The notes: generated by a model not told the origin, from the letters alone. A stretch of 64,000 nt of DNA from Minisyncoccia bacterium (GCA_044228445.1 JBGAUV010000001.1:250495-314494), one strand, 5' to 3'; shown: positions 3,723 to 63,680, counted from the first letter of the stretch. Numbers and translations: made by a program.

Positions 3723-5250
3723 TTAGTTAAGAGTTTGATCCTAGCTCAGGATGAACGCTGGCGGCGTGGATAAGGCATGCAAGTCAAACGGCTTAGCACT
3801 GTGCTCGCAAATTAATATTTGTTAGTAGAGTGCTAAGCAGTGGCAGACGAGGTAGTAATAAGCAGGTATCAACCTTCGAGTCAAGAATACCTCATCGAAA
3901 GATGAGTTAATACTTGATAGTCTCGAAAGAGTAAAGATTTATCGCTCGAAGATGAGCCTGTTCAGTATCAGCTAGTTGGTAGGGTAATGGCCTACCAAGG
4001 CTTCGACGCTTAGGGGAGGTGAGAGCCTGACCCCCACCGATGGAACTGAGACACGGTCCATACACCTACGGGTGGCCGCAGTCGAGAATCTTCCGCAATG
4101 GACGAAAGTCTGACGGAGCGACGCCGCGTGGATGATGAAGCACTTCGGTGCGTAAAATCCTTTTGCCAGGGAGAAAGTTTATTGATAGTACTTGGCGAAT
4201 AAGAGGTTGCTAAACTCGTGCCAGCAGCAGCGGTAATACGAGTGCCTCAAGCGTTATCCGGAATCATTGGGCGTAAAGGTTGTGTAGGTGGTTATATTAG
4301 TCTTTTGTTAAATTCTTCGGCTTAACCGGGGGCATGCAGAGGAAACGGTATAACTAGAGGATGCGAGGGGTTTCTGGAACTCATAGTGTAGCGGTAAAAT
4401 GCGTTGATATTATGGGGAACACCAAAAGCGAAGGCATGAAACTAGAGCACTCCTGACACTGAAACAAGAAAGCGTGGGTCGCGAATGGGATTAGATACCC
4501 CAGTAGTCCACGCCCTAAACGATCTTCTCTTGCTTTTCGGAGTATCGACCCTCCGAGAGGCGAAGCTAACGCGTTAAGAGAAGCGCCTGGGTAGTACGAC
4601 CGCAAGGTTAAAACTCAAAGGAATAGACGGGGACTTGCACAAGCGGTGGATCATGTGGCTCAATTCGACGGTAAACGAAGAACCTTACCAGGGTTTGAAA
4701 CCTAGCTGAATACTTTAGGAAACTAGAGTAGTCGCAAGACAGTTAGGCAGGTGATGCATGGCCGTCGTCAGTTCGTGGCTTGAGTTGTTCCCTTCAGTGG
4801 GGTAACGAACGCAACCCTCGTTGTCTGTTATATTTGTCAGGCGAGACTGCCCACGACATAGCGCATAAACTAAGTTTGTGCTCTGCGTCGTGGGAGGAAG
4901 GTGAGGATGACGCCAGGTCAGCATGTCCCTTTGATACCCTGGGCTGCACACGTGATACAATCGTATCTACAACAGGACGCAATACCGATAAAAGGTGGAG
5001 CAAATCCTTAGAAAAGATACGTCAGTTTGGATTGAGGTCTGCAACTCGACCTCATGAAACCGGAATCGCTAGTAATCGCAGATCAGCTATGCTGCGGTGA
5101 ATACGTTCTCAAGTCTTGTACTCACCGCCCGTCAACTCAAGGGAGTTGGGAGTACCCGAAGTCCGCGCTTGTCGCGGCCTAAGGTAAGCTCAATGACAGG
5201 GAGTAAGTCGTAACAAGGCACGGGTAGCGGAAGCTGCTCGTGGATTATTT
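3723..5250 (+). rRNA. rrs: 16S ribosomal RNA
   Basis: AGAGTTTGATCCTAGCTCAG at 3730; GTGCCAGCAGCAGCGGTAATACG (515 region, one mismatch to the universal primer); AAGTCGTAACAAGG at 5206; helix 45 with GGAA loop at 5221-5240. Confidence 0.95.
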
Positions 5251-5407
5251 CAAATTGAATCTTGATAATCCCTCAGGGATTATCTTACCGAGTCGATTTT
5301 TGTACTTAATTGTACAAACAAGGGATATTGTTCTACTACCTTACAGTGAACACTCAGTCTGCGAGAGAAAAGACAAAGATCGGTGTCCTCTATAGAGACA
5401 CTGATCG

Positions 5408-5437
5408 GATGAATGGAACAAAATAAAGTACAGTAAT
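5408..5437 (+). other. 3' strand of the 16S processing stem
   Basis: ATGAATGGAACAAAATAAA is complementary to 3701-3720. Confidence 0.6.
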
Positions 5438-5444
5438 ATGAAAG

Positions 5445-5475
5445 AACCGCTTAAAAGGCGGTTTTTTCTTTTTAT
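5445..5475 (+). terminator. Rho-independent terminator closing the 16S transcription unit
   Basis: AACCGC-TTAAAAG-GCGGTT followed by TTTTTCTTTTT. Confidence 0.7.
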
Positions 5476-5563
5476 AAATAATTATTTCCACATTTACTAT
5501 ATTTGATATGTGTGATATGTTTTTAGTGGAAATCTAGACATAGAGTCTAGTTAGAAAGGAGAT

Positions 5564-5722
5564 ATGAACAGACTTCAACTTGCTCGTAGGGTTGAGTATA
5601 GTCAACCCTCTGTTAAAGAACAAAAGCAATCAATCAGTGTTGGTTCATTTTTGCTTGCTTTGTTTATATTTATATTGGCTTTTGGGCCAATGGTAGTAGA
5701 AGGATTTCTTACAACATTTTAA
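5564..5722 (+). CDS. Small (52 aa) protein with a C-terminal TM helix
   Basis: AAAGGAGAT immediately 5' of the ATG; MNRLQLARRVEYSQPSVKEQKQSISVGSFLLALFIFILAFGPMVVEGFLTTF; below the ORF-track size cutoff. Confidence 0.4.
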   Translation: MNRLQLARRVEYSQPSVKEQKQSISVGSFLLALFIFILAFGPMVVEGFLTTF

Positions 5723-5799
5723 GGAGAGAAAGGAGATATGTTTCAATTTTTATAACCACGCGATTCTTTATGCGCGTGGTTTGTCATCTAGTTTAATAT

Positions 5800-6486
5800 A
5801 TGAAAATAAAATTTTTCAAAATAATAGTTTTAATAATAGCAATATTGTTCTCAAAACATGCTTTTGCAAAAGAAGTTATATGTCCTGAGGGGTATATTTG
5901 CTTACCAAAAAATGATCCACTTATACTTGCTTCAACAAGTCCTTGTTTTATAGGTTCAAGCATGACAACCTCTTTTAAGGATTTAGATTCAAAAGCTAAA
6001 TCAATAGGTGATAGTATTTCATTTAAATTATTAAATAAGAATAAAGATTACGCTGGTACTTGGGGAGTATTTAAAAGTGGAAGTGGATCAAGTCCTGATT
6101 ACAATAAAGATTGGGGTTTTGAACTAAGTCTAAATCTTTCAAAATTAAAAACCATAAAGTCTATTACAATTATAAACGATGATGGTAATGAAGGTTGGTC
6201 AACTAGTGCGGATGAAAAGTTATTTGGTAAAAAGCCTTATCCTCTTGTTGTTATAGATAAAAATGGAGAGCAATTAAATTATGAATATGAAGATACTATT
6301 TTTATACCAAAAGGTGAAAGTATTTTAAATCTATACGGTCAGATTGAATATAGTGACTTAAGAAATACGGAAATTGTTGTTATTTTCACTGATAATACTT
6401 ATTTGAATAGTAAGATTATTGAAAATGCTTCAACTCAAGCAAATAATAGTCTTTGGGCTAAGTTAAAATCTAAGTTTGGATTTTAA
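5800..6486 (+). CDS. Secreted protein of unknown function
   Basis: Signal peptide MKIKFFKIIVLIIAILFSKHAFA|KE; no recognisable domain. Confidence 0.6.
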   Translation: MKIKFFKIIVLIIAILFSKHAFAKEVICPEGYICLPKNDPLILASTSPCFIGSSMTTSFKDLDSKAKSIGDSISFKLLNKNKDYAGTWGVFKSGSGSSPDYNKDWGFELSLNLSKLKTIKSITIINDDGNEGWSTSADEKLFGKKPYPLVVIDKNGEQLNYEYEDTIFIPKGESILNLYGQIEYSDLRNTEIVVIFTDNTYLNSKIIENASTQANNSLWAKLKSKFGF

Positions 6487-6523
6487 TTGATGTTTAGTCG
6501 TATTTTTGGTATATTCAACAATG

Positions 6524-6555
6524 TTTTAAATGCGCGTATAGCTGACTTGGTAGGG
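6524..6555 (+). repeat. Degenerate duplicate of the tRNA-Ile 5' half plus its upstream flank
   Basis: ATGCGCGTATAGCTgacTTGGTAGgG versus ATGCGCGTATAGCTcagTTGGTAGaG at 6590-6615; diverges after the D-arm. Confidence 0.6.
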
Positions 6556-6591
6556 TTGAGTGTCACTTATACGTTTTGAGATTTTTACCAT

Positions 6592-6664
6592 GCGCGTATA
6601 GCTCAGTTGGTAGAGCACACCACTGATACTGGTGGGGTCCCTGGTTCGAGTCCAGGTACGCGCA
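6592..6664 (+). tRNA. tRNA-Ile (anticodon GAU), CCA not encoded
   Basis: Manual cloverleaf: acceptor GCGCGTA/TACGCGC, D-arm GCTC/GAGC, anticodon stem CACCA/TGGTG with loop CTGATAC, T-arm CCTGG-TTCGAGT-CCAGG. Confidence 0.9.
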
Positions 6665-6758
6665 CAAAGTTTTTATATTTCAAAAAATGTGGTAATGTAT
6701 TTGTGGAAAGGAGAAAAAATGACCGCATATACATTCGAAGGAAAAAAATAAAAAATCA

Positions 6759-9704: not shown

Positions 9705-10019
9705 ATGAGAACAATATACAATACACCACCAAATATATACGGAATTCTTTCTGATGATCATATGTTTTTCGAAGGAGTAAATAGGCCTAGTGAAATATAT
9801 AGCATTAGAGATGGAATAAATGAAAAAGATAATATTTTGATTTTAGAAAAATATTTAAATGATTTATACAATCTCTTTTTGAGAAAGATATCAACTTATG
9901 TAACTATACAAACCAATATTGTTGAAGATTCAATAAAACTCCAAGCATTATTACAAGAAATAATAAAGGTAAAAGATCTCATTGAAAAAGCTTCATCTCC
10001 GGATATAATGAAAGAGTGA
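9705..10019 (+). CDS. Hypothetical protein
   Basis: ORF with a GTGA stop/start overlap onto murD; no motif. Confidence 0.4.
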   Translation: MRTIYNTPPNIYGILSDDHMFFEGVNRPSEIYSIRDGINEKDNILILEKYLNDLYNLFLRKISTYVTIQTNIVEDSIKLQALLQEIIKVKDLIEKASSPDIMKE

Positions 10020-19019: not shown

Positions 19020-19023
19020 CTGT

Positions 19024-19053
19024 TGACAGAAAAGGTTGTTGCGTGCTAATATA
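19024..19053 (+). promoter_or_regulatory. Sigma70-type promoter TTGACA-N18-TAATAT with extended -10 (TGc)
   Basis: Read directly; immediately after the stop of the upstream gene. Confidence 0.55.
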
Positions 19054-19059
19054 TTTTTG

Positions 19060-19190
19060 CCACCCCAGAGGTATGAAATTGTTCCGTCGTCACCTCCTAG
19101 TGACCACAGGGTCATACCCCACGACGGGATGATCGATTACCTCTGAGGGTGGTATACGGCTTGCAGAATTTTTCTGCGGCCTTTTTTATT
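19060..19190 (+). ncRNA. Candidate structured small RNA (~130 nt), class unknown
   Basis: P1 CCACCC-c-AGAGGTA (19061-74) pairs with TACCTCT-ga-GGGTGG (19138-52). P2 is CCGTCGT/ACGACGG. Inner hairpin TGACC-ACAG-GGTCA. Own terminator GGC-GCAGAA-TTT-TTCTGC-GGCC plus a T6 run. Confidence 0.55.
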
Positions 19191-19344
19191 TATATTATAT
19201 TTATACACAATAAGTATTGCCTTTTTCATATATTAGATGTACTATATTTATCCGGATGCACTCTACCTCGGTTTACTACTAGGAGGTGGTAGACTCAATA
19301 GGGGTAAGGGGGAGCATTGAACCTAGTTAAGTTAGGAGGTCAAA

Positions 19345-19530
19345 GTGTCAAAGGAAAATCCTGTGACGTCATGGAGGGTGATCGGGAAGCCGGTAGTCCG
19401 AAGTGACGGACACAATATTGTCAAAGTCGATAATGGAGGAAAGAGGCCGAGAGAAGTCCTTGTACCAAAGGGCACTCCAGCCAAAAATTTCAACGCCTTT
19501 ATCAAGCAGGCATTGTATCCCACTTATTGA
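19345..19530 (+). CDS. Small (61 aa) protein of unknown function, GC-richer than flanks
   Basis: GTG start 4 nt after TAGGAGGT; followed by two hairpins including a GC-rich terminator. Confidence 0.55.
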   Translation: MSKENPVTSWRVIGKPVVRSDGHNIVKVDNGGKRPREVLVPKGTPAKNFNAFIKQALYPTY

Positions 19531-19565
19531 CATGACTGACACTTCCCCTACGGGGGAAAACTACA

Positions 19566-19596
19566 CCGCCGGGCCCAGTGGACCCGGCGGTTTTGC
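19566..19596 (+). terminator. Rho-independent terminator
   Basis: CCGCCGGG-CCCAGTGGA-CCCGGCGG-TTTTG. Confidence 0.75.
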
Positions 19597-19657
19597 ATAT
19601 GTGGATAAATATTTCACCAATATAAAATATGGTATAATAGTATGAGTATAAAATCTC

Positions 19658-59210: not shown

Positions 59211-60224
59211 ATGTTAATAGGAAAAGCATCACCAGAAGATACAAGTCTACACCCAATAAAGTATAAATGGGCTTATGATCTATACAATCAAGCAGTTAGA
59301 AATACTTGGTTTCCACATGAAATTACTCTAAAAGAGGATATGGATGATTGGAAGAAGATGACTGATGATGAAAGACATGCAGTTACATTCCTAATGGCAT
59401 TCTTTAACCCTGCAGAACTTATTGTAAATCGTTCAATTGCTTTAGGAATTTACCCTTATCTAAAGTCTCCAGAGTGCCATCTTTATCTAGCAAAACAAAT
59501 GTGGGAAGAGGCAAATCACTGTGTGGCTTTTGAATATGTTCTAGAAACATTTCCTTTTGATAGAGAAAAAATATATAACCTTCATCTTGAAGTTCCTTCA
59601 ATGAAAGCAAAAGAGGATTATATAAATAAATACATGAAGAGAATGACCGATGTTTCTCTAGATGTAAGTACTACAGAAGGTAAAAAAGATTTTATACGAA
59701 ATCTTGTTGCTACAAACATTGTGATGGAAGGAATATGGTTCTATTCAGGTTTTATGGTTGCTCTTTCATTCCGTCAGAGAAAACAACTTAGAAACTTCGG
59801 TTCTATGATTAACTGGGTTTTGAGAGATGAAAGTCTTCACTTAAAATTCGGTATGAACCTTATTCACAATATCTTGGAGGAAAATCATGATCTATTAACT
59901 GAAGATTTTGCAAATGAAATAAGAAATATAATCATAGAAGGAGTTGATAAAGAAGTTGATTATAATATGGATCTTTTCCCAAACGGTATTCTTGGTCTAA
60001 ATGCTGATTATGTTAATCAATACGTAAAGTATGTTACAGATCGTCGCCTAGAAGAACTAGGTTTTCCTCCACACTACAATGCTACAAACCCAGCAAAATG
60101 GATGTCTACTGCTACAGATGTTTATGAGCTTGTTAATTTCTTTGAAGCACAAAATACAAGTTATGAAGTAGATGTAAGAGCACATTCAGAAAAGAAAGAG
60201 GAGAAGAAAGAGGCGGGGGAGTAA
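59211..60224 (+). CDS. nrdB: Ribonucleotide reductase beta subunit, class Ic-like (R2c)
   Basis: Metal site EEANHCVAFEY has Phe at His+4, where class Ia has the radical Tyr; first ligand is Glu (NPAELIV). Confidence 0.85.
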   Translation: MLIGKASPEDTSLHPIKYKWAYDLYNQAVRNTWFPHEITLKEDMDDWKKMTDDERHAVTFLMAFFNPAELIVNRSIALGIYPYLKSPECHLYLAKQMWEEANHCVAFEYVLETFPFDREKIYNLHLEVPSMKAKEDYINKYMKRMTDVSLDVSTTEGKKDFIRNLVATNIVMEGIWFYSGFMVALSFRQRKQLRNFGSMINWVLRDESLHLKFGMNLIHNILEENHDLLTEDFANEIRNIIIEGVDKEVDYNMDLFPNGILGLNADYVNQYVKYVTDRRLEELGFPPHYNATNPAKWMSTATDVYELVNFFEAQNTSYEVDVRAHSEKKEEKKEAGE

Positions 60225-60226
60225 TT

Positions 60227-60646
60227 ATGTTAGTTGTTAAGACTAAAATTAAAAATAGTGAAATTGAAGGACTAGGTCTATTTGCTGATCAGTTTATACC
60301 TAAAGGTAGTGTAATTTGGAAATATGATCCAAGTTTTGATATTTATTTTGATCCTAAGGAGGTAGAAAAAATGTCAGAACCGCAAAAAGACCTGATAATA
60401 CATTTTGCTTATCTTTCAAAAAAAAGTGGTAAATATGTTTATTCAATAGATAATACAAGATTCACAAATCATTCAAATAAACCAAATACCGTAGAAGATG
60501 AAAATGTTTGTAGTGATGATTTAGAAATATGTACTATTGCTGTTAAGGATATTCAAATAGGGGAGGAAATTACTATTGATTATCGGGTAATTGACGCAGT
60601 GGATGAAGGTAGTAATGAGGAGTATTTGAAGACGGTAGTTCTATAG
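60227..60646 (+). CDS. SET-domain protein (putative lysine methyltransferase)
   Basis: GLGLFA, RFTNHSNKPN, GEEITIDY; starts 3 nt after the nrdB stop, preceded by GGGGGAG. Confidence 0.8.
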   Translation: MLVVKTKIKNSEIEGLGLFADQFIPKGSVIWKYDPSFDIYFDPKEVEKMSEPQKDLIIHFAYLSKKSGKYVYSIDNTRFTNHSNKPNTVEDENVCSDDLEICTIAVKDIQIGEEITIDYRVIDAVDEGSNEEYLKTVVL

Positions 60647-60663
60647 AGTTTTTATGGTTTAGG
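60628..60663 (+). repeat. Junction motif copy 1
   Basis: GAAGACGGTAGTTCTATAGAGTTTTTATGGTTTAGG; supplies the last 6 codons and the stop of the SET gene. Confidence 0.7.
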
Positions 60664-60703
60664 AATAAAAGTGGGCTCACCGAAACGAATTTCAGTGAGC
60701 CCA
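60660..60703 (-). terminator. Minus-strand terminator hairpin
   Basis: On the minus strand: TGGGCTCAC-N14-GTGAGCCCA followed by CTTTTATT. Confidence 0.5.
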
Positions 60704-60748
60704 GGGACAACCTTTTTCTCATGTTTCGCTCGCCACTACTTAGATACC

Positions 60749-60921
60749 TAAGATTTAGGCAAAAATTTACCCCACTTACATTTCCGTAAGTGGGGCGTAC
60801 CTAGGAATTTAGGATGACTTGAATCGTCTTGCGACGAATGATCAGAGCCATAAAAACCTAGATATATAAGATACTGACTTCTACATCACAGCAAACTACT
60901 ATAACTTTGTCAAGTGACAAA
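60749..60921 (+). repeat. 173-bp repeat, copy 1
   Basis: 172/173 identical to 62711-62883 by manual alignment (C/T difference at 60888 versus 62850). Confidence 0.9.
60758..60878 (-). ncRNA. Candidate sRNA A, copy 1 (~120 nt)
   Basis: Minus-strand promoter TTGACA-N17-TGTGAT (60885-60913); internal TCGTC-GCAA-GACGA hairpin; terminator CCCCACTTAC-GGAAAT-GTAAGTGGGG then TAAATTTTTG. Confidence 0.5.
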
Positions 60922-60937
60922 TGTGTGTACCTAAAAC

Positions 60938-60964
60938 AGTGGTCTCATAGAGTTTAAGGTCTAG
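60938..60964 (+). repeat. Junction motif copy 2
   Basis: AGTGGTCTCATAGAGTTTAAGGTCTAG. Confidence 0.7.
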
Positions 60965-60969
60965 CTATA

Positions 60970-60998
60970 TTGACATACTAAACTAAATGTGCTATTTT
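60970..60998 (+). promoter_or_regulatory. Promoter of cassette A: TTGACA-N17-TATTTT with extended -10 TG
   Basis: Read directly. Confidence 0.5.
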
Positions 60999-61017
60999 TG
61001 TATGTAATAGCACATTT
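60985..61017. promoter_or_regulatory. 11-bp perfect inverted repeat spanning the -10/TSS (operator-like)
   Basis: AAATGTGCTAT-N11-ATAGCACATTT. Confidence 0.55.
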
Positions 61018-61050
61018 CAACGATTTCAACCCAAAACCATTAGGAGAACC

Positions 61051-61425
61051 ATGAGCAAGCCTTCTTTCACCGTATTTGTTGGCATAAAGGGCGAATTCTC
61101 AGAAGAAGATTACGCCAAACTTCCGTCCGAGCTTCGAAAAGCATACTCGCCGTGTCCTGAATGGGATCTGGGAGAGGAAATCATTATCGACGGATTGGAA
61201 TTTGATTCCTTTGACCTTGGTCGCGATGACACTGCTGATCCGGGAGAATATGTGGGCTTCGGCGTCCATATCTTCGGTCAGTGGTATGACAGCGGAGCTA
61301 CTTGCTTCGCTCTTGATGAGCTTCAAACAATCGAATCTGTTCGTCAGAAGATGACAACTCTCTTCGATCAATGGAAGCTCGATGCCAAAGTCGAAGTGTT
61401 CTGCTTTGCAGGATACAATTCATAA
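61051..61425 (+). CDS. Island cassette A: acidic 124-aa protein, unknown function
   Basis: TAGGAGA-N5-ATG; GC-rich codon usage unlike the flanks; own terminator. Confidence 0.65.
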   Translation: MSKPSFTVFVGIKGEFSEEDYAKLPSELRKAYSPCPEWDLGEEIIIDGLEFDSFDLGRDDTADPGEYVGFGVHIFGQWYDSGATCFALDELQTIESVRQKMTTLFDQWKLDAKVEVFCFAGYNS

Positions 61426-61441
61426 CCCATCAACTCACTCC

Positions 61442-61480
61442 AGAAAACCCCTGTCGCGAGATGGTGGGTTTTCTGTTTTA
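61442..61480 (+). terminator. Rho-independent terminator of cassette A
   Basis: AGAAAACCC...GGGTTTTCT-GTTTTAT. Confidence 0.7.
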
Positions 61481-61654
61481 TAAAATTCCAATATGTTGAT
61501 ACTAACAGACTTGAACGGCATCCTAAATAGATGTCATTTATTGTTACTTGCTATATAAAAATCTCGTTGATATGTTGTTAGGTAAGACGAGCTTGAAATC
61601 AAAATAAAAACTAGAGCATCTTCTATGGGGAATTCAATCAGTATTTAACTCTGT

Positions 61655-61688
61655 GAAGACGGTAGTATTATAGAGTTTAAGGTTTAGA
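61655..61688 (+). repeat. Junction motif copy 3
   Basis: GAAGACGGTAGTATTATAGAGTTTAAGGTTTAGA; the upstream AGTATTT is also shared with copy 1. Confidence 0.7.
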
Positions 61689-61692
61689 CTAC

Positions 61693-61720
61693 TTGACATA
61701 TGACCATGTCGTGATATAAT
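61693..61720 (+). promoter_or_regulatory. Promoter of cassette B: TTGACA-N16-TATAAT with extended -10 (TGa)
   Basis: Near-consensus sigma70 promoter read directly. Confidence 0.7.
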
Positions 61721-61779
61721 TTAAAAGGACTAGGATTTTTCCTAATGCTGTCCAGCAAAATCATACTTGGAGGATAGAA

Positions 61780-62139
61780 ATGTACTCTGACGATAAAACT
61801 CTAAAAGAGTTCATGACTGTACTTGTAAGTACAGCTGCGGCTCGGAGAAACTACTTGGATGTCCCTAGCGATTTCATTTTGAGACATCCCTGGACACTGA
61901 AATACCTTTCCAATTTCGCTGAGGCTGACGATTTCATGCAGATCGCGAAAACGGAAGGAGTCCAGATTGTTTGCGAGGATGAACCCAAAAACATTCAAGA
62001 GTTTCGCCGGGACCATGGTCTCAAACCACAGGTTCGCTACAAAGTGTTTGTTCCAGCCGAAACAAAAATCAGAACAAAAGAACAGATCTTCAAGTTCGAA
62101 AGACAAGGAGATGGTTCATATGTTCCACTCAATGGCTGA
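61780..62139 (+). CDS. Island cassette B: 119-aa protein, unknown function
   Basis: TGGAGGA-N5-ATG; own terminator. Confidence 0.65.
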   Translation: MYSDDKTLKEFMTVLVSTAAARRNYLDVPSDFILRHPWTLKYLSNFAEADDFMQIAKTEGVQIVCEDEPKNIQEFRRDHGLKPQVRYKVFVPAETKIRTKEQIFKFERQGDGSYVPLNG

Positions 62140-62142
62140 ACC

Positions 62143-62187
62143 AAAACCCCATCTACGCTTTCATGAGAAGATGGGGTTTTGTCTTTT
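62143..62187 (+). terminator. Rho-independent terminator of cassette B
   Basis: AAAACCCCATCT-N14-AGATGGGGTTTT-GTCTTTT. Confidence 0.75.
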
Positions 62188-62188
62188 A

Positions 62189-62222
62189 GAAGATGGTGGT
62201 TTAATGTAGTTTAAAATTTAGA
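62189..62222 (+). repeat. Junction motif copy 4
   Basis: GAAGATGGTGGTTTAATGTAGTTTAAAATTTAGA. Confidence 0.6.
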
Positions 62223-62388
62223 TAAAAGAAAGCCGGCCAAACCTTATGGGTCTGGCCGGGAAAGTGATGGGTATGCGCCCATCTGCGGATCATTTACGAT
62301 CATTTTGCCAGTAAAATAAGGTTATTTCTGGTTACGTATCCCTGGTATTGTGTCCAGACACGTAACTTATGAATACTAACCTTATTCT
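62222..62388 (-). ncRNA. Candidate sRNA B (~165 nt), same promoter as sRNA A, different body
   Basis: Promoter TTGACA-N17-TATGAT (62395-62423, minus strand). Long hairpin AATAAGGTTA...TAACCTTATT enclosing GTTACGT/ACGTAAC. GATGGG-CGCATA-CCCATC hairpin. Terminator CCGGCCAGACC-CATAAGG-GGTTTGGCCGG then CTTTCTTTT. Confidence 0.5.
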
Positions 62389-62429
62389 TTTACCATCATA
62401 GCAAATTACTATAACTTTGTCAAGTATTC

Positions 62430-62462
62430 AAAGATGTCGGTGTTATGGAGTTCAAGTTCTAA
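62430..62462 (+). repeat. Junction motif copy 5
   Basis: AAAGATGTCGGTGTTATGGAGTTCAAGTTCTAA. Confidence 0.55.
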
Positions 62463-62478
62463 CCTCTATTGATATAAT
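62451..62478 (+). promoter_or_regulatory. Promoter of cassette C: extended -10 TGaTATAAT, weak -35 TTCAAG
   Basis: Read directly. Confidence 0.5.
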
Positions 62479-62522
62479 TAATCTAGAGTGTTAATCTTCT
62501 TTTTAAGAAAGGAGAGTACATC

Positions 62523-62720
62523 ATGATCAAAATTACTGTCCGTAAAGAAGGAGAGAGAACCTTTGCGGCCTATGTGGACGATGAAAATATGCGGCGCATA
62601 GGTGAGTCTCGAGGAGAAGCTGTTGGCAAAGTCGTATCTGATCTCATTGAACAAAGGTCAGTACGGTTGGAAGATTGTCAAGTGCATCAAATCGAGATTA
62701 AACAAAAATATAAGATTTAG
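62523..62720 (+). CDS. Island cassette C: 65-aa protein, faint HicB/DUF1902-like N-terminal pattern
   Basis: AAAGGAGAG-N6-ATG; MIKITVRKEGERTFAAYVDD...GESRGEAVGKVVSDLIE. Confidence 0.55.
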   Translation: MIKITVRKEGERTFAAYVDDENMRRIGESRGEAVGKVVSDLIEQRSVRLEDCQVHQIEIKQKYKI

Positions 62721-62883
62721 GCAAAAATTTACCCCACTTACATTTCCGTAAGTGGGGCGTACCTAGGAATTTAGGATGACTTGAATCGTCTTGCGACGAA
62801 TGATCAGAGCCATAAAAACCTAGATATATAAGATACTGACTTCTACATCATAGCAAACTACTATAACTTTGTCAAGTGACAAA
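62711..62883 (+). repeat. 173-bp repeat, copy 2
   Basis: See copy 1; begins inside the last codons of cassette C. Confidence 0.9.
62720..62840 (-). ncRNA. Candidate sRNA A, copy 2
   Basis: Promoter TTGACA-N17-TATGAT (62847-62875, minus strand); body identical to copy 1. Confidence 0.5.
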
Positions 62884-62910
62884 GATAGTGGTCTCATCGG
62901 GTTTAAAATA
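62881..62910 (+). repeat. Junction motif copy 6 (degenerate)
   Basis: AAAGATAGTGGTCTCATCGGGTTTAAAATA. Confidence 0.5.
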
Positions 62911-62917
62911 ACCAGTA

Positions 62918-62946
62918 TTTACAATTTGTATAATTTAGTATATAAA
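62918..62946 (+). promoter_or_regulatory. Promoter of cassette D: TTTACA-N17-TATAAA
   Basis: Read directly. Confidence 0.5.
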
Positions 62947-62981
62947 AAATGTAGACTTAATTTAACACTGAAAGGTGCATC

Positions 62982-63200
62982 ATGAGTATTCTAAGAGAAT
63001 TCCGTAACGCCAGCCCAAGTGAAAAAGACCCTGCAAAACTTATTTTATTCACAGTATTTGCTGACCTTAATGCTCGGCACGGCTTCGGGGATTTCTGGAG
63101 CGGTATTAACAATGATATAAAAGAAGAAATTTTGAAAACAAATCTCGAAAAGATAAGAGAAATACTGAAGAAAAAGACTCAAACCAAAAACAAAGATTGA
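62982..63200 (+). CDS. Island cassette D: 72-aa protein, unknown function
   Basis: AAAGGTG-N4-ATG; own terminator. Confidence 0.6.
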   Translation: MSILREFRNASPSEKDPAKLILFTVFADLNARHGFGDFWSGINNDIKEEILKTNLEKIREILKKKTQTKNKD

Positions 63201-63224
63201 AAAAAAGTGACTGAATCAATCCAG

Positions 63225-63268
63225 GCCTCGTGTATATACATAAAAGTAAACACGAGGCTTTGAATTTT
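63225..63268 (+). terminator. Rho-independent terminator of cassette D
   Basis: GCCTCGTG-N18-CACGAGGC-TTTGAATTTT. Confidence 0.75.
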
Positions 63269-63322
63269 ATATATCACACTTATATTTTAATAAATAACCA
63301 TTTGCCATAATATATTAAGATA

Positions 63323-63331: not shown

Positions 63332-63336
63332 TATTA

Positions 63337-63672
63337 GGTACCAGACAGTTGCTATGATACGAAAGTATCGTAGAGGAAAGTCCGAACATTGGCCTGACGC
63401 AAGTTAGGCAGAAAGGTAGCGGGTAACGCCCGTCAGTCGAAGGACTAGAGGTGCGAACAGAGACGTCTTTATTGGAAACGATAAAGAGACCCTTCGGGGT
63501 TAGCTTGTATAGAAATATATGAGGTGCAACGGCAAAATCCTTACCCCAATGCAAGGCCGTGCTTTATAGGAAACTATAAAGAGTGCCGCTTGAGGTTAAT
63601 TGCAAAATTAATCCCAGATAAATGACTGTCGTTCGTTTTTAACGAATACAGAATTCGGCTTACAGGTACAAT
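63337..63672 (+). ncRNA. rnpB: RNase P RNA, bacterial type A
   Basis: ACCAGACAGTTGC, GAGGAAAGTCCG, GGTAACGCC, GCAAGGCC, GCCGCTTGAGG, AGATAAATGACTGTC, ACAGAATTCGGCTTA all align to the E. coli M1 RNA conserved blocks. Confidence 0.9.
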
Positions 63673-63680
63673 ATGAAAAA

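What the first reader, a model, noticed from the sequence alone, without database searches (positions are those of the whole stretch)
60628..62910. ~34-nt junction motif repeated six times in one orientation at every cassette boundary (plus degenerate copies at 19.28 and 5.53 kb)
Copies lie at 60628, 60938, 61655, 62189, 62430 and 62881. They align to (G/A)AAGA(C/T)-GGT(A/G)GT-N3-AT(A/G)GAGTTTAAGGT(T/C)TAG. Each lies after a terminator (or after the sRNA promoter) and 5-10 nt before the -35 of the next plus-strand promoter. Its position and polarity fit either a binding site for a dedicated transcription factor that co-regulates all cassettes, or a recombination/junction site for cassette shuffling. 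Related strings precede the SD-led ORFs at 19345 and 5564, linking the three loci.
Basis: seen in the sequence. Interest (0 to 1): 0.65.

Follow-up and report, generated by a model that had tools for sequence, protein, structure and literature searches.

The report
Integration-site repeats bounding tiny gene cassettes
The repeated 33-base motif is a copy of the last ten codons of the conserved gene ychF, which mobile DNA in the tiny Patescibacteria uses as a docking (attachment) site, and repeated docking has built an integron-like row of miniature cassettes, each holding one small RNA gene or one small protein gene.

Summary
Six same-strand copies of a ~33-nt motif lie at 60628-62913, and they are the six best matches in the 64-kb window. 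The claimed degenerate copies at 5.53 and 19.28 kb are background. The motif is not a promoter-proximal regulator site. It is the 3' end of ychF (…KDGDVMEFKI*). In about 50 Patescibacteria MAG loci and about 50 metagenome contigs, arrays of 1-6 co-oriented copies start at the real ychF stop codon and run toward leuS, or sit about 350 nt downstream of a Xer-like tyrosine integrase (INT). The units between copies have a median spacing of 375 bp. Each is one transcription unit, a structured sRNA or a small ORF, in either orientation. Their GC content is about 41% whatever the host GC (29-54%). Homology between related genomes breaks at or inside the motif. Two deletions in this window end at the same base, GAGTT^TAAG. 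INT relatives at 69-75% identity in phage-like contigs carry a diverged copy 320-370 nt after int. Best reading: an att-type site for site-specific integration, with tandem accretion of integrase-less micro-cassettes. Here the array lies at a secondary site, between nrdB/SET and rnpB. It is a new variant of a known kind. The recombinase and the crossover point are inferred, not shown.

The parts
59211..60224 (+). nrdB, the conserved left flank of the variable region
   Evidence: Pfam Ribonuc_red_sm on the identical protein in L006. Homology to the related species L070 (88.8% nt) stops at 60223.
60227..60646 (+). SET-domain ORF, itself a cassette gene in other genomes. Its last 6 codons and its stop codon lie inside motif copy 1.
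   Evidence: Pfam SET, E=9e-16. Homologous SET genes are flanked by the motif on both sides in L014, L024 and L032, and they end inside the motif to their right.
60628..60662 (+). Motif copy 1 (GAAGACGGTAGTTCTATAGAGTTTTTATGGTTTAG; it carries a 2-nt insertion)
   Evidence: 20/31.
60663..60748 (-). Remnant of a minus-strand small unit with terminator hairpin 60703-60672. Its right end and most of the next motif copy are removed by a 49-nt deletion relative to L001/L006/L007.
60749..60921 (-). sRNA1 cassette. It holds the truncated motif right part TAAGATTTAG (60749-60758), a minus-strand terminator (60796-60769) and an sRNA body. The position that corresponds to the scanned TTGACA-17-TATGAT promoter of the second copy has a weaker -10 (TGTGAT) here and was not picked up by the promoter scan.
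   Evidence: 173-nt direct repeat, 99% identical to 62711-62883. Terminator. Predicted fold z-score -6.5.
60932..60964 (+). Motif copy 2
   Evidence: 24/31.
60970..61475 (+). ORF124 cassette: promoter 60970-60998, SD-led ORF 61051-61425, terminator 61450-61475.
   Evidence: Homologues at 63-83% identity lie in different Patescibacteria contexts. The same motif+promoter+5'UTR+ORF module sits next to INT in L008.
61655..61687 (+). Motif copy 3
   Evidence: 27/31.
61693..62185 (+). ORF119 cassette: consensus promoter 61693-61720, ORF 61780-62139. An apparent stem-loop followed by a T run at 62145-62185 was seen by eye in the sequence; the terminator scan did not list it.
62189..62221 (+). Motif copy 4
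   Evidence: 27/31.
62222..62429 (-). sRNA2 cassette: minus-strand promoter 62423-62395 and terminator 62259-62233.
   Evidence: It is 80% identical over 202 nt to a cassette in the ychF array of a Tayloriibacteriota MAG, L026. Of 48 predicted pairs, 4 show compensatory double changes and none is broken.
62430..62462 (+). Motif copy 5
   Evidence: 23/31.
62523..62720 (+). ORF65 cassette. Its terminator and most of the following motif are removed by a 79-nt deletion relative to L002/L004, so the ORF now stops at the TAG of the truncated motif (62711-62720).
62711..62883 (-). Second copy of the sRNA1 cassette: promoter 62875-62847, terminator 62758-62731.
62881..62913 (+). Motif copy 6, the most degenerate and the last in the array
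   Evidence: 21/31.
62917..63294 (+). ORF72 unit (ORF 62982-63200, hairpin 63220-63263). It is still inside the variable region. No recognisable motif follows it.
   Evidence: (I8). Homology to L070 resumes only at 63295.
63333..63678 (+). RNase P RNA gene (rnpB), the conserved right flank
   Evidence: Rfam RF00010, 120 bits. Its promoter directly follows the last motif copy in L070.

Best explanation
The motif is an attachment (att) site, that is, the core sequence at which a site-specific recombinase joins mobile DNA to the chromosome. It derives from, and in most relatives still overlaps, the last ten codons and stop codon of ychF (AAAGATGGnGATGTnATGGAGTTTAAGATTTAG, encoding KDGDVMEFKI*). 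Elements that integrate there carry their own version, GAAGATGGTGGTGyNATAGAGTTTAAGATTTAG. Each integration leaves one more co-oriented copy.

Repeated integration (tandem accretion) has produced arrays in which every unit is bounded by the site. The units are unusually small, with a median spacing of 375 bp. Each is one complete transcription unit: a structured small RNA, or an SD-led small ORF with its own promoter and terminator.

In this window the array sits at a secondary locus, between nrdB/SET and rnpB. It holds about eight such units.

Shown: the identity of the motif with the ychF 3' end; the co-oriented arrays at conserved hot spots; breakpoints of inter-genome variation at the motif; the sharing of cassettes between distant genomes; and host-independent cassette GC.

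Inferred: (i) the catalyst is the Xer-like tyrosine recombinase family 'INT', found about 350 nt upstream of a motif copy (my confidence about 0.55); (ii) strand exchange occurs in or near GAGTT^TAAG (about 0.5); (iii) the micro-cassettes are themselves mobilised in trans as integrase-less modules, rather than being mere scars (about 0.6).
For: 1. ychF origin. In 26 of about 47 genome loci the first copy is the real end of a gene with MMR_HSR1 and YchF-GTPase_C domains. The C-terminal domain aligns through the last residue, 365, at model positions 1-83 of 84.

2. Distribution. An exact-pattern scan of 185,579 species' genomes gave 61 stretches. About 51 are in Patescibacteria MAGs. The other 10 lie in MAGs of other phyla; several of them are plainly inside coding sequence and I take them as chance hits. 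The metagenome scan gave the same two contexts.

3. Orientation. Of 121 copies at E<1 in the genome loci and the window, all are co-oriented within their locus and none is opposite. They define 67 inter-copy units with spacing 141-1138 bp.

4. Breakpoints. The related species L070 is 82-89% identical to the window up to the nrdB stop and again from the rnpB promoter, but carries different cassettes in between. The homology blocks between L008 and six other loci end at L008 positions 9912-9916, that is, at the last bases of the motif. L008 and L151 share INT and the left part of the motif at 90% identity and diverge after GAGTTTAA. L151 then continues into ORFs that I read by eye, from their sequences, as phage replication, methylase, terminase and portal genes; they were not scanned against domain libraries. 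L007 lacks 1962 bp between two cassette copies.

5. Common endpoint. Two independent deletions in this window (49 nt and 79 nt) share the right endpoint GAGTT^TAAGATTTAG to the base, with no microhomology. The SET ORF needs the first 18 nt of the motif copy to its right.

6. Cassette mobility. Eight cassette families are shared between loci, always in the same orientation relative to the motif. sRNA2 is shared with a Tayloriibacteriota MAG. The ORF124 module occurs in four different genomic contexts.

7. Shared pool. Cassette GC is 0.41±0.04 against host GC of 0.29-0.54, with r=0.29.

8. Recombinase. INT lies 350-400 nt upstream of the motif and co-oriented with it in 6 genome loci and about a dozen metagenome contigs. 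INT stays about 91% identical while its neighbour c8 drops to 46-78%. INT relatives at 75, 70 and 69% identity carry motif-like sites (25, 20 and 22 of 31) 320-370 nt after int. These sites are followed by phage-like replication genes or preceded by lysis genes. Relatives at 57-59% identity carry none.
Against: No integrase lies in the 64-kb window or within about 4 kb of most ychF-linked arrays, so the recombinase has to act in trans or is unidentified. The window's array is not at ychF, and there is no ychF in the window, so how the site reached nrdB-rnpB is unexplained. The motif has no dyad symmetry, unlike many tyrosine-recombinase core sites (by inspection of the consensus). Both deletions with the shared endpoint are in one genome and adjoin copies of the same sRNA1 cassette, so they are not fully independent. 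In L009 the ORF124 homologue is inverted relative to the motif, and L131 has a head-to-head motif pair. No true copy was found in IMG/VR viral contigs. No circular intermediates or empty sites were observed. It is unresolved whether INT is element-borne or a host gene.
Confidence: 0.78

Rival explanations
1. Scars only. The copies are att repeats, but the small units between them are decayed remnants of successive integrations of large elements (prophages, islands). They are not cassettes that move on their own.
For: Large inserts do occur at the site: an 8-kb gene set in L008 and phage-like genes in L151, L080 and L158. Tandem islands with degenerate remnants are known at tRNA and ssrA sites (10.1101/2020.12.28.424599; PMC3146451). 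48 of the 67 units are singletons.
Against: Many of the short units read in detail are compact, complete transcription units running from promoter to terminator, not gene fragments; not every unit was checked this way. No cassette shows nucleotide or translated similarity to the phage-like contigs fetched. The same small units recur in distant genomes and at different loci with the motif intact. Cassette GC is uniform across hosts.
Confidence: 0.14
2. Portable homology. The motif is only a shared 33-nt stretch. RecA-dependent recombination, for example after natural transformation, swaps units across it, as proposed for the promoter-stem-loop (PeSL) junctions of T4-type phages. No dedicated recombinase is involved.
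For: Most arrays have no integrase nearby. The loss of 1962 bp in L007 lies between two 173-nt repeats and could be ordinary homologous deletion.
Against: Two deletions join the same base of the motif to non-homologous DNA. A conserved integrase is positioned next to the site, and the site diverges together with it. About 20 positions are nearly invariant across hosts from 29 to 54% GC, but these positions include the bases fixed by the search pattern, so this conservation is partly built in. The site regenerates the ychF reading frame, as att sites in gene 3' ends do.
Confidence: 0.06
3. Regulatory site. The motif is bound by a transcription factor, or acts as an UP-like element, that co-regulates the adjacent promoters.
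For: In the window 4 of 6 copies end 4-6 nt before a plus-strand -35. Three also lie 6-20 nt from a minus-strand -35.
Against: Two copies adjoin only terminators. In other genomes either end of the motif may abut a promoter or a terminator. One class of copies is the coding end of ychF. Adjacency to promoters follows simply from the units being compact.
Confidence: 0.02
4. dif-like site. The motif is the chromosome-dimer resolution site of a single-Xer system, and the cassettes are elements that exploit Xer (IMEX-like, or like the pdif modules of Acinetobacter plasmids).
For: INT resembles XerA/XerC/XerD (PDB XerA 2.5e-15) and sits next to a copy, much as xerS sits next to difSL (that comparison is from my own knowledge).
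Against: Two separate motif loci occur on single contigs (L028+L049; L014+L069) and in five other MAGs. The flanking genes are co-oriented across the site. The site shows no 11-6-11 dyad. It is a ychF coding end. INT scores far below the Xer family cut-offs (129 against 220; 114 against 330), and relatives of INT sit in phage-like contexts.
Confidence: 0.03

Closest known systems
Tandem genomic islands at the 3' end of a conserved gene, e.g. the Dehalococcoides ssrA-specific islands (PMC3146451) and the cis-mobilizable elements (CIMEs) built by accretion next to ICEs (reviewed in PMC5704250)
   Same: There are direct repeats of the 3' end of a single-copy conserved gene, all in one orientation, downstream of that gene. 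Each repeat bounds a block of strain-specific DNA. Some blocks carry an integrase next to one repeat and others carry none. The repeats differ at fixed positions from the genuine gene end, which allowed the insertion point to be inferred in Dehalococcoides as it does here.
   Different: The target here is a protein-coding end (ychF), not ssrA or fda. The blocks are 0.15-1.1 kb single transcription units rather than 5-30 kb islands, and many carry only a small RNA. The candidate integrase is a Xer-like tyrosine recombinase, not a Ccr-like serine recombinase. A secondary array exists away from the target gene.
Tycheposon-driven islands of Prochlorococcus (10.1101/2020.12.28.424599)
   Same: The host genomes are streamlined and have few classical mobile elements. 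Integration is site-specific at a handful of conserved sites. Successive integrations push older elements inward. Partial att repeats are scattered through the island, and cargo behaves as plug-in cassettes.
   Different: Tycheposons target tRNA/tmRNA genes, carry integration and replication modules of several kb, and have kb-scale cargo. Here most units have no mobility genes at all and are about 10-fold smaller.
Integrons (intI, attI and attC-bounded cassette arrays, including integrase-less CALIN arrays)
   Same: A tyrosine recombinase gene lies beside a primary site. It is followed by an array of small cassettes (a few hundred bp) separated by co-oriented recombination sites. Integrase-less arrays occur elsewhere in the genome, and cassette content turns over rapidly between relatives.
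   Different: The site is a fixed 33-nt non-palindromic sequence, not a folded attC with R''/L''/L'/R' boxes. INT lacks the IntI signature (TIGR02249: 56 bits against a cut-off of 265). The cassettes carry their own promoters and terminators and may face either way. int is co-oriented with the array.
PeSL (promoter-early stem-loop) junctions in hyperplastic regions of T4-type phages
   Same: Short conserved junction sequences flank single small ORFs, each with its own promoter and terminator, and are thought to drive modular shuffling.
   Different: PeSLs themselves contain the promoter and the stem-loop and are thought to act through homologous recombination. The motif here contains neither. 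It derives from a host gene end and is tied to an integrase.

Membership tests
att-site repeats of site-specific integrative elements targeting a gene 3' end | The repeat matches the 3' end of the target gene and restores its reading frame | tested here: met
   The first copy in 26 loci is the end of ychF (…KDGDVMEFKI*). The YchF-GTPase_C domain aligns through the last residue.
att-site repeats of site-specific integrative elements targeting a gene 3' end | Direct (co-oriented) repeats bound the inserted DNA | tested here: met
   121 of 121 copies are co-oriented within their loci. One inverted pair occurs in a metagenome contig, L131.
att-site repeats of site-specific integrative elements targeting a gene 3' end | Presence/absence variation between relatives has its breakpoints at the repeat | tested here: met
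   Window against L070. L008 against six loci, with blocks ending at L008 positions 9912-9916, the last bases of the motif. L008 against L151. Window against L007.
att-site repeats of site-specific integrative elements targeting a gene 3' end | A cognate integrase is encoded next to one att copy in at least the autonomous elements | tested here: inconclusive
   INT lies 320-400 nt upstream of the site in about 20 contigs, including phage-like ones, and the site diverges together with INT. INT is absent from the window and from most ychF arrays, and it is unresolved whether it is element-borne or host-borne.
att-site repeats of site-specific integrative elements targeting a gene 3' end | Excision to a circle and re-integration | not testable with these tools
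   This needs read-level or experimental data.
Integron | IntI-type integrase (family signature/extra domain) | tested here: not met
   TIGR02249 scores 56 bits against a cut-off of 265, and PRK15417 scores 26 against 435.
Integron | attC sites: imperfect inverted repeats that fold into a hairpin, with an RYYYAAC…GTTRRRY core | tested here: not met
   The consensus has no internal dyad, and the core reads GAGTTTAAG, not GTTRRRY (by inspection).
Integron | Mostly promoterless cassettes in one orientation, expressed from Pc | tested here: not met
   The cassettes have their own sigma-70-like promoters and terminators and face both ways.
Xer/dif and IMEX or pdif modules | One dif per chromosome, at the terminus | tested here: not met
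   Two loci lie on one contig (L028/L049; L014/L069) and several MAGs have two or more loci. Flanking genes are co-oriented. GC skew around the site could not be tested beyond the window.
Xer/dif and IMEX or pdif modules | A 28-31-nt site with two inverted recombinase-binding arms | tested here: not met
   There is no dyad symmetry in the 33-nt consensus (by inspection).
Transcription-factor or UP-element site | Fixed position and polarity relative to the regulated promoters | tested here: not met
   Only 4 of 6 window copies precede a plus-strand promoter. In other loci either end of the motif abuts promoters or terminators.
Known RNA families (for the minus-strand units) | A match to an Rfam covariance model | tested here: not met
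   Nothing reached gathering score in the window array or in 18 loci. At E<=5 there was only noise.

The most novel reading that the evidence does not exclude
Patescibacteria have an integron-like gene-capture platform of their own. A highly conserved Xer-like tyrosine recombinase (about 91% identical while its neighbour drops to 46-78%) exchanges single-transcription-unit micro-cassettes through a double-stranded 33-nt site borrowed from the ychF 3' end. The cassettes are mostly structured small RNAs of unknown function, plus small SD-led proteins. They come from a pool shared among hosts whose GC ranges from 29 to 54%. This would give these reduced, symbiotic genomes a dedicated way to sample accessory functions.
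Probability: 0.33. Interest if true: 0.8.

Novelty: new variant of a known kind. Interest (0 to 1): 0.62.

Why it matters
Patescibacteria (the Candidate Phyla Radiation) have tiny genomes, and little is known about how they acquire genes. This site marks conserved hot spots (ychF-leuS, INT-leuS, nrdB-rnpB) where the content turns over completely between related species. The cargo is unusual: dozens of different promoter-to-terminator small-RNA genes and small proteins with no known relatives.

If the units move as cassettes, this is a second, mechanistically distinct solution to the problem that integrons solve. It would also be a ready source of uncharacterised regulatory RNAs.

In practice, the 33-nt consensus is a simple probe for finding the flexible gene pool in Patescibacteria metagenomes. 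Together with INT, it is also a candidate integration tool for organisms that currently have no genetic system.

Tried and rejected
- Cassette proteins. Pfam, PHROGs and PADLOC on ORF124, ORF119, ORF65 and ORF72 gave nothing; NCBIfam was run only on the SET protein and on L008 genes. An AlphaFold model of ORF124 (pLDDT 80) has no significant PDB match and only weak matches to uncharacterised phage proteins, with E>=2e-3 and TM 0.35-0.45.
- RNA families. Rfam on the array and on 18 related loci found no family.
- Viral origin of the motif. The IMG/VR scan gave 5 hits, all inside apparent coding sequence; four carry the same flanking sequence. A tblastn of INT against GenBank phages found only integrases at <=28.5% identity.
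- Integrase in the window: none.
- ychF in the window: none.
- Copies at 5.53 and 19.28 kb: rejected as background.
- dif/IMEX, integron attC and CRISPR-like readings. All rejected on copy number per genome, lack of dyad symmetry, spacing, and the ychF coding origin.
- DNA-uptake sequence. Rejected because the copies cluster at a few loci, and there are none in the other 61 kb of the window.
- c8, the gene next to INT, as a phage lysin. Rejected, because it shows no similarity to the PG_binding proteins upstream of the INT relatives.
- Cassettes as fragments of the phage-like contigs: no similarity.
- Extending the window's own contig. The look-ups returned only short metagenome contigs, so GC skew beyond 64 kb and a genome-wide search for INT were not possible.

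Full report
**What is in the window**

The window comes from a low-GC (~29%) bacterium. It carries a 16S rRNA gene, tRNA-Ile, nrdAB and RNase P RNA. The related loci listed below are almost all Patescibacteria (CPR) MAGs, so the organism is most likely one of them; this is an inference.

Between the nrdB stop (60224) and the rnpB promoter (~63300) lie a SET-domain ORF and a row of small, GC-richer units at 40% GC.

Six + strand copies of a ~33-nt motif sit at 60628, 60932, 61655, 62189, 62430 and 62881. Three results support them statistically:
- A profile finds only these six below E=0.05.
- Against a consensus built from other genomes, they are the six best positions of the window.

The alleged copies at 5.53 and 19.28 kb score 14/31 and 16/31. 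Hundreds to thousands of window positions reach those scores, nhmmer does not report the two sites, and those regions match nothing in any related locus.

**Anatomy of the array**

- Copy 1 overlaps the last six codons and the stop codon of the SET ORF.
- Between successive copies lie either plus-strand units or minus-strand units. The plus-strand units have a promoter, an SD-led ORF and a terminator (ORF124, ORF119, ORF65, ORF72). The minus-strand units have a TTGACA-17-TATGAT promoter, about 130-170 nt of structured RNA, and a terminator (sRNA1 twice, sRNA2, and a truncated one).
- sRNA1 folds with a z-score of -6.5.
- sRNA2 keeps all 48 predicted pairs, four of them through compensatory double changes, against an 80%-identical copy in another genome.
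- A plus-strand -35 therefore follows only 4 of the 6 copies. The other two are followed by minus-strand terminators.
- Metagenome contigs of the same population (L001-L007) carry two more full copies where the window has only 'TAAGATTTAG'.

**Where else the motif occurs**

A scan of one genome per species (185,579 species) with AARAYRGTRGTNNNAYRGAGTTYAA gave 61 stretches. About 51 are in Patescibacteria MAGs labelled Paceibacteria, Parcubacteria, Tayloriibacteriota or 'Saccharibacteria'. The other 10 lie in MAGs of other phyla; several are plainly inside coding sequence (for example an IlvC-like and a NifU-like reading frame, judged by eye), and I take them as chance hits. The 5 IMG/VR hits are all inside apparent coding sequence too.

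A profile built from the true hits finds 121 copies at E<1 in these loci and the window. Loci hold 1-5 copies, always co-oriented, with 67 inter-copy units at a median spacing of 375 bp (range 141-1138). The metagenome scan added 77 stretches with the same patterns.

**What the motif is**

In 26 of about 47 genome loci the array begins at the real 3' end of ychF and runs toward leuS, with both genes co-oriented with the motif. The first copy reads AAAGATGGnGATGTnATGGAGTTTAAGATTTAG, which encodes …EGKEYIVKDGDVMEFKI*. Pfam aligns YchF-GTPase_C through the last residue of that ORF.

The junction copies share their own consensus, GAAGATGGTGGTGyNATAGAGTTTAAGATTTAG, which reads E D G G x I E F K I * in the ychF frame. 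It differs from genuine ychF ends at fixed positions in the left part. This is the signature of site-specific integration into a gene's 3' end by elements that carry a replacement end. The same logic was used for the ssrA repeats of Dehalococcoides (PMC3146451) and the partial tRNAs of tycheposon islands (10.1101/2020.12.28.424599).

**Breakpoints of variation**

- L070 is a related species: nrdA, nrdB and the rnpB region are 82-89% identical at the nucleotide level. It matches the window up to 60223 and again from 63295. In between it has motif, a different sRNA, a degenerate motif, a different reversed ORF, motif, then rnpB.
- The homology blocks between L008 and six other loci that share a conserved block end at L008 positions 9912-9916, at the last bases of the motif.
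- L008 and L151 share the left side at 90% identity and diverge after GAGTTTAA. L151 then runs into ORFs that I read by eye as phage replication, methylase, terminase and portal genes; they were not scanned.
- L007 lacks the 1962 bp between the two sRNA1 cassettes.
- The window has two deletions relative to its population, 49 nt and 79 nt. Both join unrelated DNA to exactly …GAGTT^TAAGATTTAGG.
- SET ORFs in four genomes use the first 18 nt of the motif copy to their right.

Together these points place the exchange point in the right third of the site. This is an inference. The two deletions adjoin copies of the same cassette in one genome, so they count as less than two independent events.

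**Are the cassettes mobile?**

- Eight cassette families recur between loci, always in the same orientation relative to the motif.
- SET is a motif-flanked cassette in L014, L024 and L032.
- The ORF124 module occurs at nrdB-rnpB (window), next to INT (L008), near ychF (L009, inverted) and near rnc/SMC (L010).
- sRNA2 is shared with a Tayloriibacteriota MAG.
- Cassette GC is 0.41±0.04 whether the host is at 0.29 or 0.54 (r=0.29). This argues for a common, circulating pool.
- No cassette resembles the phage-like contigs I could fetch.

**The recombinase**

A 305-aa tyrosine recombinase (INT) lies 350-400 nt upstream of a motif copy and co-oriented with it, in 6 genome loci and about a dozen metagenome contigs. 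It is Xer-like but scores below all curated cut-offs.

INT stays about 91% identical where its neighbour c8 has fallen to 46-78%. Relatives at 75, 70 and 69% identity have motif-like sites (25, 20 and 22 of 31, still encoding …EF(K/R)I*) 320-370 nt after int. These sites are followed by AAA_24/SSB or DnaA_C/RusA genes, or preceded by PG_binding proteins; that is the usual place of attP in temperate phages. Relatives at 57-59% identity have none.

I infer that INT-family enzymes act on the site. I could not settle whether the 91%-identical INT is a host gene or the end of an integrated element. There is no INT in the window.

**Comparison with known systems**

The closest known systems are tandem islands and cis-mobilizable elements at gene 3' ends (PMC3146451, PMC5704250) and tycheposon islands (10.1101/2020.12.28.424599).

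The architecture also recalls integrons: a recombinase beside a primary site, arrays of small cassettes, and integrase-less arrays elsewhere. Every defining integron feature that I tested fails, however. INT lacks the IntI signature, the site is not a folded attC, and the cassettes carry their own promoters and face either way.

A dif/IMEX reading fails on copy number per chromosome and on symmetry. The transcription-factor reading fails its own positional rule.

I found no paper describing this site.

**Verdict**

The 'junction/recombination site' reading is right in kind, and the regulatory reading is wrong. What is new is the target (the ychF end, conserved across a phylum), the miniature single-transcription-unit cargo dominated by small RNAs, and the existence of secondary arrays such as the one in this window.

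Noticed in passing
window 5195-5255 (16S 3' end), and gene starts across the window: The 16S rRNA ends …GTGGATTATTTC, without the CCUCC anti-Shine-Dalgarno sequence. Only 2 of 43 ORFs of 200 aa or more have GGAG/GAGG/AGGA at -18..-4. Yet five of the six small GC-rich ORFs checked (61051, 61780, 62523, 19345, 5564) have a strong SD of that kind; the sixth, 62982, has only AAAGGTG. This suggests the cargo was shaped in hosts with a canonical anti-SD.
   Followed up: partly
window 5256-6665: The 16S gene is separated from tRNA-Ile (6592-6665) by 1.3 kb that holds a 52-aa membrane-like ORF and a 228-aa signal-peptide-like ORF. A degenerate copy of the tRNA-Ile 5' half lies at about 6527-6570, just upstream of the tRNA. 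No 23S gene follows in the next 57 kb.
   Followed up: no
window 19020-19650: This is a GC-rich (40%) island. It has a consensus promoter, about 130 nt of strongly paired RNA and a terminator, followed by a second promoter, a long leader, an SD-led 61-aa ORF and a terminator. It has no motif copy and matches no Rfam family and none of the fetched loci.
   Followed up: partly
L131 1465-1525: There is a head-to-head pair: a full motif copy, then TTT, then an inverted partial copy. It is the only opposite-strand copy seen, and it hints that inversions can occur at the site.
   Followed up: no
L059 4501-6051: The ychF stop codon inside the site is lost, and the ORF reads on to 516 aa (…VVKDGDVVEFKIFRLL…).
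   Followed up: no
window 61438-61478; also L008, L009, L010, L018, L024, L051, L059: Forward-facing ORF cassettes with unrelated genes share one terminator module (GGAAAAyCC…GAGAGGTGGGTTTTCTGTT) placed a few bases before the motif. Its descending arm resembles the motif's 5' part (GAGATGGTGGG against AAGATGGTGGT) (D16, 36, 50, 66).
   Followed up: no
L042 3720-3800 (minus strand as read): A cluster of DnaA-box-like sequences (TGTGGATAA, GTGGATTAA, TGGATAACC) lies directly upstream of the first motif copy of a five-copy array.
   Followed up: no
window 21000-46000: A long run of co-oriented ORFs at 20-26% GC lies below the window mean. I did not annotate it. By position and composition it could be a surface-polysaccharide cluster.
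   Followed up: no
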